A stretch of 64,000 nucleotides of DNA from Escherichia coli (GTDB lineage Bacteria; Pseudomonadota; Gammaproteobacteria; Enterobacterales; Enterobacteriaceae). The position numbers are program-made. The stretch lies in the NCBI RefSeq assembly GCF_048403405.1, contig NZ_CP183129.1. One strand, written 5' to 3'. Positions 54,701 through 60,700 of this stretch are shown here, piece by piece (within the stretch, counting starts at the first letter, position 1; every line of letters begins with the position of its first letter).

Positions 54701-57700
54701 GAAATAAGCCAGTAACGCGATGACTGCGAGAGTTATAGATACCAGTGGAATATGCCCCAGCCAACCCGGCATATTTTTGCTTTTGGCGCTTGCCACACAG
54801 TTCTTATCGAAAGCCTTCAATTTTTTGATTAGCCATTTTGCTTTATAAGCTGCTTTTATGCCCCAGCGTTCTCCTCTGGAAGCGGCTGTTTTATCACTCA
54901 TTTCCCCCTCCGGTAATCAGTGAGTCTGATTTATCTCATGCTTGTCGTCTATCGTTAATACAATTTTAGGTCGATTTTTAATCATTGTCTACATCTTGTG
55001 AGTTATGCACATATCCACGGTCACCAAGCCAGTGCAACCCGATGCCAACAAGCAATCGGGTAAACGGGAGCGTACAGGGCATCGGCCCTGATGGTGGCGG
55101 TGGGTATGTGTATAACTTTTTTGTTGCCTTCATATAAAAATCTTATTCTTTCATCTGGATGGATTTATTGAATTTGATTTTTTATGTCAGTTTAAGTAAG
55201 TTTTTAATATGTATCCGAGTCCTTGTATATAGGAGATGATAATATGAATTTTATTTTTTGGTTTGTGGTCTTAATAGGGGCGGGATATTTGTGGAGGAGG
55301 AGGGGTTGGTTCAGTAAAATAAGGAAGCAATACTCAAGGAGAAAAACAACATTAAATGGTAACAAAGGATGTTTATATAATAAAAAAAATGACAATGATG
55401 CTTTGGAAGGTAATGGGGATTGTAATAATTTTTATTCTGAGAATAAAGAAAGTTTCTTTTGGTTAATGATTGAGAGAGGTATTAAATTTTACAGAAAAGA
55501 ATATTTGACTACGATTACTGAAAAAAATATCATGATAAGTTAGTGAGCTGGTTTGGTGAGAAATGTTATATACATTGTCAGGTTAGTTTAGGGAGTTTAT
55601 TTATATTCCCAAAACAAAAAAATTTTACTGATGAAGAACAAAAACGTTTTTTTTCTGTTTGTAATAGAATGTCCTTGGATTTTATTTTAACATTTAAAAC
55701 TAATATGCCCTTCTTACGTGTTTCTGTTGACTCTATGAAAAATAAACCGCCTGTTTGGGATGTTTATGATAAATCCAAATAAAAACATATCTGATTGTTG
55801 AGTTTTCGTGATTAAAGATGGCATTGATTATTAATACGATGAAGAACCAACAAGGGGATATTTAATAAAGAGAAAAAGGAGGATGTAAAATATTCTCCTT
55901 TTTCTTTATCGGGTATTGACGAAAAAAGAAAGTTTGATTAAATTTACCACGTTACACCGTTGCTTAATGCAACATTGCCAATGCTTCGGTTGTCTGAGAG
56001 AAGCGCCTACGGGTGACAACAATGCCAATCCGGCAATCTGAGAGGAACGCCTACGGGTGATTGCCACTGCCAATCCTCGGGTCATCTGAGACGAGGGCCT
56101 ACGGGCGATGACAGAACTCCGTTCGTCCTTGAAATCGACGGAGGGTGATAACAGAATAGCGTTATCATCAGGATTAACTGCACTTCAGTGACCATGTCAC
56201 AGCTATCCGGTCACTCGGATATCCACAAAAAAGCAGAGTATGCGATAACGTGTATCTGCCTCTTCTGATGTGTTCTGACGAATACGTCCTGCTTTCTGCA
56301 ACCTTTGTATGCCCGGTATGACGCGTTTCCATTGCGCAGCTTTGGAAAGCGGCATCTTCGGAGCAATACATTGAGCAGCAGAATGATGGGCGTGCGTCAC
56401 TTTCGTCAAGTGAAACGAAGACAAAGTGACGCACGCAAGTGCATACGCTCAGAACGCTTCAATACTGGTCTTACAGCAAAACTGACAATCTGACAGACAT
56501 GTAATGCATTGCTCAGAACGGCTGAAAGTCTTTCAACGCTCAACGTTTATATGATGATAAAAACGTATAACATTATGAAAAAAGGAGAAAAAACGACACG
56601 ATACCAAGGCGACGTCAGGAAACTGACGGACGGAGGTGCCCTGATAACGGGGGCCGGTCTGATGACCGCAAACAGTTCAGAGAACTGATTTGATACCTCT
56701 CAACAACTCAACCTTTTATCGCCCCGGTGCTCAGGTATCTGTCAGGTCGCAGGATGCGCAATATAAAACCGTCGCGCCGGGAAAAGGTAACCAGTTGAGA
56801 GCGAAAGAGGCGGAGAATCAGAGAATGTCCAGAAGAGCAAAAGCCCTGTCCCGTGAAATGCATATCCTTGCACGTCAGGCCGGAGGGAGCTTTAAAACCA
56901 TTGCAGACCGGGTCAAAATTGCAGAACGGGTTGCGGCAGAGCTGGCCGGGTTGAATATTCAGATACGATCTGTTGAGCAACTGAAATCCCGCCATATTGA
57001 AATGTATATCCATGCCCGCAGAGAACAGAATATCAGTTTACGCAGCTGTCAAAACGAAATGTCGGCTATCCGGGCGATATTTCGTGTTGCCGGACGTCAT
57101 AAACTGGCTGACCCTAAACATGAGCGCCTCAGTAATGAGGCGCTGGGGCTTTCAGGTGCCAGCAGGGCTGGCACCCGTACCGCGATATCGGACGAGCGCT
57201 TTCACGAAGCGCTCGCTCGGATTGAGCCTTATGATCAGGGGGTGGCATTAACTATGCAGTTATCCCGTAGTCTGGGATTGAGAAATGAAGAAGCCGTGCA
57301 GTCAGTAAAATCATTACGGACCTGGCAACAGGCGCTTAAAAACGGTAAAGATCGCGTTCATGTGGTTTTTGGGACAAAAGGAGGCAGACCCCGTGAAGCA
57401 TTAGTGCCGGATAAAGCCCGTGTATTAACATTAATTAATAAAGCCATTGAATATGCGGATAAACATAACGGTTATTTAATTAATCGTCCGTCATTACATT
57501 CTGCCAAAGATCGTTATATTAATGTGATGCGACGGATAGGCGGATTTATTCACGAAGAATCAAATCATGGTTTACGGTATGCCTATGCTCAGGATGTTGA
57601 AAAATATTATCTCAGTCAGGGATTCAGTCAAAAGGAAGCCTATGCATTAACCTCCATGGATTTAGGGCATGGTGACGGTCGTGGCGATTATATTAAACGG

Positions 57701-60700
57701 GTTTATAGTCAGAAAGGAGATATTGAGGAATAAGATAAAAATGAAAGTCTGTTTAATTATTTTGTTTATTAATTTTGCTTTTTGTTTTCCGTTAATGGCG
57801 AAGACGTTATTTTTAGGTGATTCATTAACGGCTGTTTATGAAATGTCAGCAAAATATGTTTTGGATGAAAAAATAAAAACAGAATATGTTTCCGGTTCGG
57901 GGTTAATAAATAAAAGTAAAAAAGATTGGATCGCTTTCGTGAATAATTTCGATTTGCGGGAGTTTGATAATGTGATTATTAGTCTCGGAACAAATGATTT
58001 TGTTCAATATGGTTCGGATGAATGGCTGAAATATTACAGTCTGGTATTTCAATTCATTGCTGAAATTCAAAGTGAAAATCCGTTAGCGACAATTGTCTGG
58101 ATATCTCCACCACATTTAAAAAATCCGGAACATGAACGTTATTTAATACATACCCGGCATATAATTAAACACAGTGCGATGTTATTAAATATTCATTATC
58201 TGGATATTAATCAGCCTCATATATTAGGAACGCAATGGCAATCTGTTATTCATAATGAAACTGTACGAACTGATGATGGAATACATATTACCCGTAAAGG
58301 GGGAGTACGGGTGATCAGAGAAGTGGTAAAAATCCTGAATGGGCAGGATTGACAAAGATAAAAAAACGGCTAAAAATGAATCTGCTTATCTCGTTGCGTA
58401 ATGCAACTTGCCAATGCTTCGGTTGTCTGAGAGAAGCGCCTACGGGTGACAACAATGCCAATGTTCCGGCAATCTGAGAGGAACGCCTACGGGTGATTGC
58501 CACTGCCAATCCTCGGGTCATCTGAGACGGGAGCCTACGGGCGATGACAGAACTCCGTTCGTCCTTGAAATCGACGGAGGGTGATAACAGAATAGCGTTA
58601 TCATCAGGATTATTTTTACGCAACGCTTCATATAACCTGCCCGCTGACGGGGAAATCACCCGTCATCAGGGAATTTCTCCGTTTTTTCAGGAGAAATTCA
58701 ATGAAGGTATCTACATTTCCGGAATCGTCTTTTTTTGACGATCTGCACTCTCTCACGCAACTGCATCACCTCTCAGGTGAGCTCGACATGGTTCTTGCTT
58801 TTGTCCGTCTGGATATTGGCGAGCACCCGGACGAAGATAATTTTCCGCCAAACTTCTGGATAATCAGTGCCGTTGCAGAGCAACTGGGCGCGTTATCTGT
58901 GGAGGCTGATTTTACCCGTCCACATCTTGAGAAAATGGTCCGCGCTGTCTGGAAAGCGGCTGAGCAAACGCCTTATGCGTCTGACTTTCGCCGTATCTAC
59001 AACGATGCGATCAAAAATGCACAGTTTGAAGATCCGGTTGAAGCGCTGATGTTTGGTGCTTAACGGCGGACATTCACTGATTTTATGACCCATACGGGAA
59101 AACATCCCGTGAGGGCTGTATTCCCTTATCTGAGGATAGCCCTTATGACTCTTTTTACATTGAATTATGGTGTTGCCCACGTAATGTCTGGTATTGCCAG
59201 TTATTTATTTCCGCATTCCCGTGTTTCTCAGCAACTGAAGGCCGTTGCTAATGATGCCCGGATGCTGAAAATCACCGCAGAAGAACTGGAGGTGATACGT
59301 TTGGACGAAAAACGGATGTATCAGAGCGGAGATTACAGAGAACTGCCGTTTATTGAGCTTGATTTGTATACAACGGCATTTCGTTTTGGCGCCCTGATTT
59401 ACTATGGACTCGCAAACCGGTGCCCCCGCATTTTTGCTTCACCGGCTGACAGTCATCGCTGAGCGGCTCGATCCGGAAATCTGGAATGAAGCCTGGCGCT
59501 GGGGTTACCGCTGCTGCCTGCAACACGAAAATGAAAAGCATGTAACCGACTGATTTAACGGACTCACAGGTGTCAGTCAGCTACCCTGAAATGGGGCTGC
59601 TTCCATTTACTGATCAGGTTTGATAACCATGATTTATGGCATTACCCGCGGACTGTTCTTTGTGGCCGATCACGTCTGTCGCTATTCCCGGAGTTGGGAA
59701 TGGCTGATGTGGCTGGTTGAGGAAGCCCGGACACTGCGAAATGTTGAGGCTGATTTGAAACTGGCTGAAAGGTATGCCGGTGAGCAAAACCGCCCTCATT
59801 CCATTTCGCTGATGAAGTGTACGCTTTATGATGCCGGATTTGCTTACGGCAGATTATTACTGTGGCGTGCGGATGGTCTGATGAGACCCTGGCCGGCATG
59901 TCTGCTTCGCCGTTTACCGGATATCGGTCAGCGGATTGATGCAGTGATCTGGCAGAAAGGCTGTGAAGCCGGCTTGGATGAGACCGTCAGTGAATGGATG
60001 GCAATGGAGATGGCTGATGAATACCTTGTCGGTATCGAACTGAGCGACTGATTTGCCGGCATTCATTCTTTTTTTACTTACCTACCCGACGGGGAAACTC
60101 CCCGTCAGGTGGACGTTTCTCCGTCTTTTTTTACCGGAGAAACACACATGTCTGTTTTACTGCCAGAAAACAAACCGTTTTCATTTCTGAGTCTGATCAT
60201 GCAACGGCTGTACCGTTTTTATGACCGTATACCGTTTGTTTCGTCAGGGATACCCGGTGAATTACCGTGGATAAGTAACCGAACCGGCCGGCGCGCTTAC
60301 CGTGCGACGGTGGTGAAAGTGAATCCCCGGCAGTTCAGGATCCGCATTACTGTACGTCTGGGCGCGCATTCGAAAGAATACCGCTTTCATTCGTTGATAA
60401 CCTCGCTGGACAGCAGGACATTTTGTTCCATAAAAGCGGCCTCCCGTGCCGGATTTGCACTGACATACCAGCTGGCACAGGTGCGTTATGCCTGGTGTCG
60501 CTGATTTGTTGTACTGATAGCACCATTGACTTTTTGTTATGACCCCGCCCGGCGGATTGATTTCCGTCAGGAGATGAATCCGCCATTTTTTTAATCAGAA
60601 TGAGGATTTATCACATGGGATATACACATTATTTTACACAAAAACAAAGCGTTGACCCCCTGATGTGGCAGAACTTCCGTGAACATCTGGACAAGCTCTA

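What the first reader, a model, noticed from the sequence alone, without database searches (positions are those of the whole stretch)
56825..58352. Small tyrosine recombinase-like gene followed by an AT-rich secreted GDSL hydrolase
The 302-aa protein has only the C-terminal catalytic-box pattern of tyrosine recombinases and no obvious N-terminal core-binding domain, so it may be a resolvase or invertase-type recombinase acting on a nearby site (the structured repeats and hairpins flank it). The GDSL gene immediately downstream is much lower in GC, implying independent acquisition.
Basis: partly seen in the sequence, partly recalled or inferred. Interest (0 to 1): 0.3.

Follow-up and report, generated by a model that had tools for sequence, protein, structure and literature searches.

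The report
Relaxase-like recombinase with structured leader, plus cargo hydrolase
The "small integrase" is a complete tyrosine-recombinase-fold protein of the MpsA/MOB_M family, which is thought to start conjugative DNA transfer rather than to invert or excise DNA; it lies inside a conjugative element behind a conserved structured leader, and the GDSL hydrolase after it is an unrelated cargo gene.

Summary
Both ORFs are real: a 302-aa protein at 56825-57733 and a 203-aa signal-peptide SGNH/GDSL hydrolase at 57741-58352 (32% GC). Pfam finds PF12834 (residues 7-95) plus PF12835 (residues 108-257), and an AlphaFold model (pLDDT 87) aligns over its full length with Xer, lambda Int, IntI and Cre. 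R153, K185, H248, R251, H282 and Y289 are invariant.

PF12835 is the family of SGI1 MpsA, an atypical relaxase. This exact protein (WP_004252296.1) is a seed for "MOB_M relaxases" in a 2026 preprint.

The window is an ICEPm1-like element with a type-G conjugation system, inserted at tRNA-Phe. It has its own PF00589 integrase and a TraI_2 protein elsewhere.

The flanking "repeats" are two Rfam STAXI arrays in direct orientation, each behind a sigma-70-like promoter. Between the left array and the gene lie a hairpin with invariant arms (GCGTCACTT...AAGTGACGC) and the Rfam EFASI motif. This order holds in about 80 related loci.

The GDSL gene sits in a hotspot of variable cargo. No excised form was found in 27 E. 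coli genomes. The kind is already known and the mechanism is untested.

The parts
55916..55944 (+). Sigma-70-like promoter (TTGACG-17-TAAATT) ending 14 nt before the left STAXI array
   Evidence: A promoter-like site at this fixed distance occurs upstream of 38 of 87 distinct STAXI arrays, against 0.7% of random windows.
55958..56176 (+). Left STAXI array: three pseudoknot units (Rfam match 55958-56115) plus two trailing hairpins. It is the left copy of the direct repeat.
   Evidence: Rfam RF01728, 112 bits against a gathering score of 40.5. Repeat families D1, D2 and D8. Strand bias: 20 G:T against 2 A:C pairs, with UNCG loops.
56390..56436 (+). Long hairpin with invariant arms GCGTCACTT / AAGTGACGC (14 perfect pairs here). 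Candidate recognition element of the oriT-comprising region.
   Evidence: Inverted repeat I9. It is the strongest inverted repeat in 59 of 61 related intergenic regions. It occurs once per locus in 70 of 82 sources and nowhere else in 1.01 Mb. There are 54 distinct versions with covarying flanks.
56593..56744 (+). EFASI structured motif, about 80 nt upstream of the start codon
   Evidence: Rfam RF02957, 78 bits against a gathering score of 51.2. Present upstream of the gene in 78 of 80 related loci. 21 of 33 predicted pairs show compensatory changes.
56825..57733 (+). mobM-like gene: 302-aa two-domain tyrosine-recombinase-fold protein (PF12834 + PF12835), WP_004252296.1
57741..58352 (+). AT-rich cargo gene: 203-aa SGNH/GDSL hydrolase of the DUF459/PatB-like type with a predicted signal peptide
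58349..58377 (+). Sigma-70-like promoter (TTGACA-17-AAAAAT) ending 14 nt before the right STAXI array
58392..58612 (+). Right STAXI array plus trailing hairpins. It is the right copy of the direct repeat and the probable 5' leader of the next transcription unit (ORF 58701-59063 onward).
   Evidence: Rfam RF01728, 123 bits. 98% identical to the left array.

Best explanation
The 302-aa protein is a complete, probably catalytically active member of the PF12835 / MOB_M family, the family of SGI1 MpsA. These are proteins with the tyrosine-recombinase fold that serve conjugative DNA processing at an origin of transfer, not integration, inversion or resolution. It belongs to an ICEPm1-type integrative conjugative element with a type-G mating-pore system, inserted at tRNA-Phe. 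That element carries a separate PF00589 integrase and a TraI_2 (MOB_H-type) protein.

Inferred mechanism. A promoter at about 55916-55944 drives a long structured leader in the order STAXI array, conserved hairpin, EFASI. This is followed by the mobM gene and the co-oriented GDSL gene. The leader DNA is the oriT-comprising region. The protein recognises it, most plausibly at the invariant-arm hairpin, and cleaves one strand through Y289. TraI_2 and the coupling protein TraD then help unwind and deliver the strand. EFASI occupies the position of the sgm-sRNA that SGI1 needs for mobilisation and may play that role.

The right STAXI copy is the promoter-plus-leader of the next operon and is not a recombination partner. 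The GDSL gene is a periplasmic PatB/DUF459-like SGNH enzyme picked up as cargo in Morganellaceae.

Shown here: fold, domains, conserved residues, family membership, the conserved order of the elements, and the cargo hotspot. Inferred: nicking, the identity of the nic or recognition site, the role of the RNA, and co-transcription.
For: Domains and fold. PF12834 at 1.3e-35 and PF12835 at 4.4e-51. AlphaFold pLDDT 86.9. Foldseek probability 1.00 to Xer, lambda Int, Tn1549 Int, XerH, IntI and Cre over about 300 columns. R153, K185, H248, R251, H282 and Y289 are invariant in 25 homologues.

Link to MpsA. MpsA, taken from an SGI1 locus, scores 4e-11 on PF12835, above the cut-off. It aligns collinearly with our protein at 25% identity over 238 aa, E 1e-7. 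It shares GLRxEE, GTKGGR and LGHG...Y, with Y289 aligned to MpsA Y319. PF12835 is used as the MpsA-type 'INT_DTR_like' signature in PMC10484663. MpsA, MpsB and a 125-bp GC-rich oriT upstream of mpsA are essential for SGI1 transfer (PMC6414798). An sRNA encoded between oriT and mpsA is also essential (PMC9299015).

Direct naming. Preprint 10.64898/2026.01.13.699239 lists WP_004252296.1 as a MOB_M seed. It says MOB_M is tied to type-G ICEs with the oriT between the mating-pore operon and the relaxase gene. One search shows that accession on our CDS.

Context. TraG_N ends at 54419 upstream. The element's PF00589 integrase and TraI_2 protein lie 8-9 kb downstream.

Conserved order. EFASI is found in 78 of 80 loci and upstream STAXI in 62 of 80, always on the gene's strand. 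The invariant hairpin occurs once per locus. The relaxase-less O157 island that the preprint calls an oriT-only hitcher keeps STAXI, the hairpin and EFASI.
Against: No nicking or transfer activity has been shown for this protein or any close relative. Even for MpsA, the authors could not map the nic site.

The element has a conventional MOB_H-type TraI_2 protein that could be the only relaxase.

Unlike MpsA, this protein carries a fused N-terminal core-binding-type domain and has no separate MpsB. In that respect it looks more like a classical recombinase.

Identity to MpsA is only 25%. Rfam finds neither STAXI nor EFASI in SGI1, so the analogy between the two leaders is positional only.

The MOB_M assignment in the preprint is computational. 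The paper that localised the SGI-4 oriT experimentally could not be read.
Confidence: 0.6

Rival explanations
1. It is a conventional site-specific recombinase. For example, it could resolve multimers of the excised circular element, or maintain its plasmid-like form, acting at the invariant-arm inverted repeat at 56390-56436.
For: It has a full two-domain architecture with a complete catalytic set. A single conserved palindromic site lies next to the gene. A TraI_2 relaxase candidate exists elsewhere in the element. Distant homologues sit on many small plasmids typed as non-mobilisable, where a resolution function would make sense.
Against: The distance between the arms varies from 8 to 21 nt, and the spacer itself is self-complementary. 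That fits an extruded hairpin, not a 6-8 bp crossover region. The only characterised family member acts in mobilisation. An island without the gene retains the whole leader, which suggests a cis-acting transfer signal.
Confidence: 0.2
2. The protein excises or inverts the segment of about 55900-58700 by recombining the flanking repeats.
For: The two flanking copies are 98-100% identical over about 220 bp. That is the highest within-locus similarity among 37 loci with two arrays. It could reflect ongoing exchange between them.
Against: The repeats are direct, so inversion is impossible. None of 27 E. coli genomes carrying the element shows the single-repeat junction. In most relatives the two arrays are only about 85% alike, and the downstream one is missing in roughly half of the loci. 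Each array has its own promoter and the properties of a sense-strand RNA. STAXI occurs without the gene.
Confidence: 0.07
3. It is a non-catalytic DNA- or RNA-binding regulator with a recombinase fold, like the SPbeta regulator MrpR, and it controls the leader or the downstream operon.
For: Sources often name the family 'DNA-binding protein'. Weaker Foldseek matches include MrpR and a phage repressor (ranks 49-50).
Against: All six catalytic positions are invariant across homologues of 55-87% identity and are shared with MpsA. A pure binding protein would not be expected to keep them.
Confidence: 0.08

Closest known systems
MpsA of Salmonella genomic island 1 (atypical tyrosine-recombinase-type relaxase; PMC6414798)
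   Same: Both belong to Pfam family PF12835. The two proteins align collinearly and share the GLRxEE, GTKGGR and LGHG...Y motifs. In both, a GC-rich region bearing inverted repeats and a structured RNA-coding stretch lie directly upstream of the gene.
   Different: Identity is only 25%. MpsA needs a separate small MpsB protein that resembles a core-binding domain; here a PF12834 domain is fused at the N-terminus. SGI1 has no STAXI or EFASI match. SGI1 borrows the conjugation machinery and the TraI of IncA/C plasmids, whereas this element encodes its own type-G system and its own TraI_2 protein.
MOB_M relaxases of type-G ICEs (preprint 10.64898/2026.01.13.699239), including the one assigned to SGI-4
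   Same: The identical protein, WP_004252296.1, is one of that study's seed sequences. The association with a type-G system and the position of the oriT region between the mating-pore operon and the gene both match.
   Different: That study treats the upstream intergenic region only as an 'oriT-comprising region'. It does not mention STAXI (0 occurrences). Its assignments are computational.
Rfam STAXI (RF01728) and EFASI (RF02957) motifs
   Same: Both are matched above their gathering scores, in the documented order of STAXI, a few hundred bp, EFASI, integrase gene.
   Different: Rfam gives them no function. Four things are added here: a conserved promoter in front of STAXI, sense-strand RNA signatures, an invariant hairpin between the two motifs, and the link to the MpsA/MOB_M family.
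Classical tyrosine recombinases (XerC/D, lambda Int, IntI, Cre)
   Same: Two-domain fold and the catalytic residues R, K, H, R, H, Y.
   Different: No PDB match by sequence and only 11-17% identity in the structural alignments. No pair of core sites with a short spacer was found, and no rearrangement was seen. The element's real attachment-site integrase is a different PF00589 protein.
PatB / DUF459 periplasmic SGNH enzymes (PDB 8gr2, 8tlb)
   Same: The GDSL protein matches DUF459 (2.6e-17), a DUF459 structure (8.3e-5) and peptidoglycan O-acetyltransferase B (3e-4). It has the four SGNH blocks and a signal peptide.
   Different: The similarity is weak. The substrate is unknown. Homologues were found only in Proteus, Providencia, Morganella and E. 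coli carrying the element.

Membership tests
Tyrosine recombinase superfamily | Catalytic-domain fold | tested here: met
   PF12835 at 4.4e-51. Foldseek probability 1.00 to Xer, lambda Int, XerH, IntI and Cre.
Tyrosine recombinase superfamily | Catalytic residues R-K-H-R-H/W-Y | tested here: met
   R153, K185, H248, R251, H282 and Y289 are invariant in 25 sequences.
Tyrosine recombinase superfamily | N-terminal core-binding domain | tested here: met
   PF12834 at 1.3e-35 over residues 7-95. The model shows four helices.
Tyrosine recombinase superfamily | Paired core sites (inverted arms, 6-8 bp spacer) and an observable rearrangement | tested here: not met
   There is only one palindrome per locus, with an 8-21 nt self-complementary spacer. 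No deletion junction was found in 27 genomes.
MpsA / MOB_M relaxases | Homology to MpsA (PF12835 signature) | tested here: met
   MpsA hits PF12835 at 4e-11. BLASTP E 1e-7 with 25% identity over 238 aa. Motifs are shared.
MpsA / MOB_M relaxases | Inclusion in the published MOB_M set | tested here: met
   WP_004252296.1 is named as a seed and is the accession on this CDS.
MpsA / MOB_M relaxases | oriT-type region directly upstream, between the mating-pore genes and the gene, in a type-G ICE or a mobilisable island | tested here: met
   TraG_N and TIGR037xx ICE genes lie upstream. The 870-bp structured region is conserved in about 80 loci.
MpsA / MOB_M relaxases | Separate MpsB-like accessory protein | tested here: not met
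   No small ORF of that kind follows the gene. A core-binding-type domain is fused at the N-terminus instead.
MpsA / MOB_M relaxases | Required for transfer; strand-specific nicking at oriT | not testable with these tools
   This needs mating assays and nick mapping. It has not been achieved even for MpsA.
sgm-sRNA-type RNA cofactor | Structured RNA encoded between oriT and the relaxase gene, on the sense strand, and needed in trans | tested here: inconclusive
   EFASI has the right position and strand and strong covariation.
Rfam STAXI / EFASI | Covariance-model score above the gathering threshold | tested here: met
   STAXI scores 112 and 123 bits (threshold 40.5). EFASI scores 78 bits (threshold 51.2).
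SGNH/GDSL hydrolases (DUF459) | Pfam match above cut-off and the four conserved blocks (S, G, N, H) | tested here: met
   PF04311 at 63.3 bits against a cut-off of 27.2. FLGDSL, SGSG, GTND and DGIH are read in the translation.
Invertase / shufflon-type switch | Inverted repeats bounding the segment | tested here: not met
   The flanking repeats are direct.

The most novel reading that the evidence does not exclude
STAXI, the invariant-arm hairpin and EFASI together form the RNA and DNA side of a MOB_M relaxosome. The transcript that starts at STAXI is processed to release an EFASI RNA. That RNA is a required cofactor of the tyrosine-recombinase-type relaxase, the widespread counterpart of SGI1's sgm-sRNA. 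The hairpin is the element the protein recognises. If so, two orphan Rfam motifs, described in 2010 and 2017 according to my recollection, would gain a function. RNA-dependent initiation of conjugation would then be a general property of type-G ICEs and of the islands that hitch on them, such as the O157:H7 tellurite/urease island.
Probability: 0.3. Interest if true: 0.65.

Novelty: already known. Interest (0 to 1): 0.35.

Why it matters
Proteins of this family are routinely annotated as "integrase" or "DNA-binding protein". That hides the likely transfer origin and relaxase of a large group of enterobacterial conjugative elements and of the pathogenicity islands that ride on them.

For this window, the practical result is a corrected annotation. 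The gene is not the element's integrase and not an invertase. The flanking repeats are promoter-plus-leader modules. The GDSL gene is cargo in a variable slot.

The broader point is modest but testable. The conserved order of promoter, STAXI, invariant hairpin, EFASI and gene gives concrete candidates for the cis and RNA components of an unusual relaxase system whose nick site has never been mapped.

Tried and rejected
- Sequence search of the recombinase against the PDB gave no hit. The fold comparison was needed instead.
- Megablast of the locus against plasmids gave no match. The element is chromosomal.
- oriT of SGI1 against complete E. coli genomes gave no match. One Salmonella record in the plasmid set supplied the SGI1 locus.
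- Rfam on the SGI1 locus at E up to 1 found no STAXI or EFASI. Homology between the two leaders is therefore not claimed. Short shared strings are recorded only as a lead. These are CGCCTTCGG and CCAGCCAATG in the sgm-sRNA core, and GCCTACGG in oriT.
- The paper that localised the SGI-4 oriT is not in the library. I could not check its coordinates against STAXI, the hairpin or EFASI.
- Integron-like reading (STAXI as attC-like sites bounding cassettes). I considered it because unrelated AT-rich genes sit just upstream of STAXI arrays. I rejected it as the main reading. STAXI has its own promoter, folds on the sense strand with UNCG tetraloops, and no excision junction exists.
- STAXI as a single-strand DNA promoter of a leading region (Frpo-like). 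I rejected it because the wobble-pair bias (20 G:T against 2 A:C) puts the fold on the coding-sense strand, and an ordinary double-strand promoter precedes it.
- The hairpin as an intrinsic terminator. I rejected it because no T-run follows it.
- ORFs on the minus strand across the STAXI arrays (55906-56085 and 58315-58659) share a peptide only because the DNA is repeated. I did not treat them as genes.

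
Full report
**What is at the coordinates**

The window region 56825-58352 holds two co-oriented ORFs. The first runs from 56825 to 57733 and encodes 302 aa from the ATG. The second is a GDSL-type gene. Its longest ORF starts at 57669, but RefSeq starts it at the ATG at 57741, which gives 203 aa, 8 nt after the first gene's stop.

GC content falls from about 0.46-0.53 in the first gene to 0.32 in the second. The GDSL protein matches Pfam DUF459 at 2.6e-17 and matches the GDSL lipase families more weakly. It carries the four SGNH blocks: FLGDSL, SGSG, GTND and DGIH. It begins with a hydrophobic, signal-peptide-like segment. The observation itself therefore stands.

**The N-terminal domain is present**

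- Pfam finds PF12834 (Phage_int_SAM_2, residues 7-95, 1.3e-35) and PF12835 (Integrase_1, residues 108-257, 4.4e-51).
- An AlphaFold model built on 25 homologues has a mean pLDDT of 86.9. It shows a four-helix N-terminal domain followed by the catalytic domain.
- Foldseek against the PDB aligns about 300 columns with archaeal Xer, Tn1549 Int, lambda Int, XerH, the integron integrase and Cre, all at probability 1.00.
- R153, K185, H248, R251, H282 and Y289 are invariant in homologues of 55-87% identity.

The protein is a complete and probably active enzyme of the tyrosine-recombinase fold.

**Where the window comes from**

The locus is 100% identical to chromosomal DNA in 27 of 5,426 complete E. 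coli genomes and matches no plasmid. In strain HM670 it lies in an integrative conjugative element next to tRNA-Phe. That element carries traD, a run of TIGR037xx "integrating conjugative element" genes, the adhesin gene taaP, TraG_N, ArdC, a CbtA toxin, a TraI-domain protein and a terminal integrase.

Identical proteins occur in Proteus mirabilis and Providencia stuartii. From my own knowledge, this is the ICEPm1 family.

The terminal integrase is a PF00589 protein, and the TraI protein carries TraI_2 and TraI_2_C. The element therefore already has an attachment-site integrase and a conventional MOB_H-type relaxase candidate. The 302-aa protein is neither of these.

**What the flanking repeats are**

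Rfam finds three features at gathering threshold, all on the + strand:
- STAXI (RF01728) at 55958-56115;
- STAXI again at 58392-58551;
- EFASI (RF02957) at 56593-56744.

The two STAXI arrays, together with about 60 nt of trailing hairpins, form a direct repeat (55958-56176 and 58392-58612) that is 98-100% identical. [quoted passage not shown] The arrangement here is the documented one.

**What the protein family does**

[quoted passage not shown] I recovered an SGI1 locus through its published oriT sequence and tested the link directly.
- MpsA scores 4e-11 on PF12835, above the cut-off.
- It aligns collinearly with our protein at 25% identity over 238 aa, E 1e-7. The alignment includes the N-terminal region.
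- It shares GLRxEE, GTKGGR and LGHG...Y. Our Y289 aligns with the predicted MpsA nucleophile Y319.

MpsA, MpsB and a GC-rich, inverted-repeat-bearing oriT just upstream of mpsA are essential for SGI1 transfer (PMC6414798). An sRNA encoded between oriT and mpsA is also essential (PMC9299015).

A 2026 preprint from the Rocha laboratory (10.64898/2026.01.13.699239) defines "MOB_M" relaxases from MpsA, TcpM, MobK and four further seeds. One of those seeds is WP_004252296.1, which is exactly the accession on our CDS. The preprint reports that MOB_M proteins are often mis-annotated as integrases. It ties them to type-G ICEs and places the oriT between the mating-pore operon and the relaxase gene. 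All of this fits the window.

**Comparative anatomy**

I fetched 80 loci that encode relatives of 50-100% identity from Enterobacterales genomes. Eleven were scanned with Rfam. All were scanned with nhmmer profiles built from those Rfam hits.
- EFASI precedes the gene in 78 of 80 loci.
- A STAXI array lies a further 200-550 nt upstream of EFASI in 62 of 80.
- A second STAXI array follows the gene in about half (37 of 79 sources have both).
- All of these features are on the gene's strand.

Three further regularities emerged.

*The invariant hairpin.* The strongest inverted repeat between STAXI and EFASI is the same element in 59 of 61 loci: GCGTCACTT(G/T), then 8-21 nt, then (C/A)AAGTGACGC.
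- A strict pattern finds it once per locus in 70 of 82 sources that carry the gene. Five more sources have both half-sites.
- It lies 335-565 nt before the start codon, except in three loci with insertions. It occurs nowhere else in 1.01 Mb.
- In the window it is at 56390-56436.
- Its 54 distinct versions keep the 9-10 nt core unchanged. The outer and inner stem segments covary, and the spacer length changes.
- That pattern fits recognition of an extruded hairpin and does not fit a crossover site.

*STAXI behaves as a sense-strand RNA.* In 57 distinct STAXI units the outer stem has 311 Watson-Crick pairs, 20 G:T pairs and only 2 A:C pairs. The inner mini-hairpin is usually C(UUCG)G, or UACG in this window. 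These are RNA-type UNCG tetraloops. The fold is therefore on the sense strand and is probably RNA.

*STAXI has its own promoter.* A sigma-70-like promoter ends 12-16 nt before position 1 of STAXI in 38 of 87 distinct cases, against 0.7% of random windows. In the window these promoters are at 55916-55944 and 58349-58377.

EFASI also shows strong covariation, with 21 of 33 predicted pairs carrying compensatory changes, and it has conserved G:U pairs.

Together these results make the repeats promoter-plus-leader modules. The left one heads the unit of STAXI, hairpin, EFASI, mobM and GDSL. The right one heads the following genes.

**An island that keeps the leader without the gene**

STAXI-like sequence occurs in 641 E. 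coli genomes. In an O157:H7 strain it lies in the tellurite/urease island. There, STAXI (134 bits), the invariant hairpin and EFASI (48.9 bits, E 3e-8) are all present but no recombinase gene follows.

The preprint describes this island family as relaxase-less "iOriT" hitchers. [quoted passage not shown] This is indirect support that the leader region contains the oriT. I could not read the SGI-4 paper.

**The GDSL gene**

In most relatives the downstream STAXI follows the gene within 45-100 nt. Where the gap is larger, it holds unrelated and usually AT-rich genes. Examples are a truncated serine-recombinase-like ORF, an ATPase paired with a nuclease-like protein, an arginase-like protein and a transporter cluster (these labels are my reading of the translations and were not searched). 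The slot is therefore a cargo hotspot.

Homologues of the GDSL protein were found only in Proteus, Providencia, Morganella and E. coli that carry the element.

Its nearest solved relatives are a DUF459 protein (8.3e-5) and the peptidoglycan O-acetyltransferase PatB (3e-4). Independent acquisition is supported, probably in a low-GC Morganellaceae host. A periplasmic cell-envelope-modifying role is a guess.

- Inversion is excluded, because the repeats are direct.
- For excision, I searched a synthetic junction (left flank, one STAXI array, right flank) against complete E. coli genomes. All 27 carriers matched only as separate halves and none matched as a joined form.
- Within-locus similarity of the two arrays (median 0.845) exceeds between-locus similarity (0.72). 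It is highest in this window (0.98) and in other loci that carry cargo.
- Some exchange or duplication between the arrays has therefore occurred, perhaps when cargo was inserted. Homologous recombination is enough to explain it.

**Verdict**

The finding is a real but ordinary feature whose kind is already described. It is a MOB_M/MpsA-type relaxase candidate with the tyrosine-recombinase fold, in an ICEPm1-like element. It is preceded by the known STAXI and EFASI motifs and followed by a cargo SGNH hydrolase.

Its biochemical activity remains unproven. The co-resident TraI_2 protein and the fused core-binding domain keep a conventional recombinase role open.

This analysis adds three things: the invariant hairpin, the promoter in front of each STAXI array, and the positional parallel between EFASI and the sgm-sRNA of SGI1. 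Together they give testable candidates for the cis and RNA components of this relaxase system.

Noticed in passing
window 55100-55900: A very AT-rich block (GC 0.26-0.33) with two small co-oriented ORFs (55223-55543 and 55543-55782). Neither has a Pfam or NCBIfam match. The block ends just before the left STAXI promoter, mirroring the position of the GDSL gene before the right STAXI, so it looks like a second cargo insertion.
   Followed up: partly
L083 8984-9764 (E. coli O157:H7 MB41-1, tellurite/urease island): STAXI (134 bits), the invariant hairpin (9387) and EFASI (48.9 bits) are present in the usual order, but no PF12835 gene follows. IS66 copies lie just downstream. STAXI-like sequence occurs in 641 of 5,426 E. 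coli genomes.
   Followed up: partly
L082 3794-4125, minus strand (SGI1 oriT and sgm-sRNA core): The SGI1 sRNA core contains CGCCUUCGG (a C(UUCG)G hairpin) and CCAGCCAAUG. The first also occurs in STAXI units and the second in the linkers between them. oriT IR1 (CGCGCAC/GTGCGCG) resembles the invariant arms GCGTCAC/GTGACGC. Rfam models do not detect homology, so this may be chance.
   Followed up: partly
L056 7111-7315 and L067 7121-7315: In Dickeya and Pectobacterium loci the gene is followed by isrK and C4 antisense RNA matches (P1-type immunity RNAs) instead of a second STAXI array.
   Followed up: no
L036 4248-6001 and L040 4484-6001: About 1.5-1.75 kb is inserted between EFASI and the recombinase gene in two loci, which separates the leader from the gene. 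The content was not examined.
   Followed up: no
L023 1749-4124 and L024 6883-9317: The cargo slot after the gene holds low-GC gene pairs or triplets (GC 0.33-0.35 against 0.53 for the gene). One includes an ATPase-like protein with a Cys-rich nuclease-like partner, and they resemble anti-phage defence cassettes. They were not searched against defence libraries.
   Followed up: no
window 55906-56085 and 58315-58659, minus strand: Two listed ORFs share the peptide MTRGLAVAITRRRSSQIAG...LSPVGASLRQPKHWQ. This is a by-product of reading through the repeated STAXI DNA and is not evidence of genes.
   Followed up: yes
(plasmid collection): Distant PF12835 relatives (24-35% identity) sit on many small plasmids of Acinetobacter, Francisella, Shewanella, Avibacterium and Burkholderia. 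In all, 111 of the 150 matching plasmid records are typed 'non-mobilizable'. If the family are relaxases, those plasmids may be mis-typed.
   Followed up: no
L001 26128-28497 (extends past the window end): Downstream of the second STAXI unit lie ArdC, a CbtA-family toxin and a DUF1281 protein, then TraI_2 and the PF00589 integrase next to tRNA-Phe. This resembles an anti-restriction, early-gene region.
   Followed up: partly
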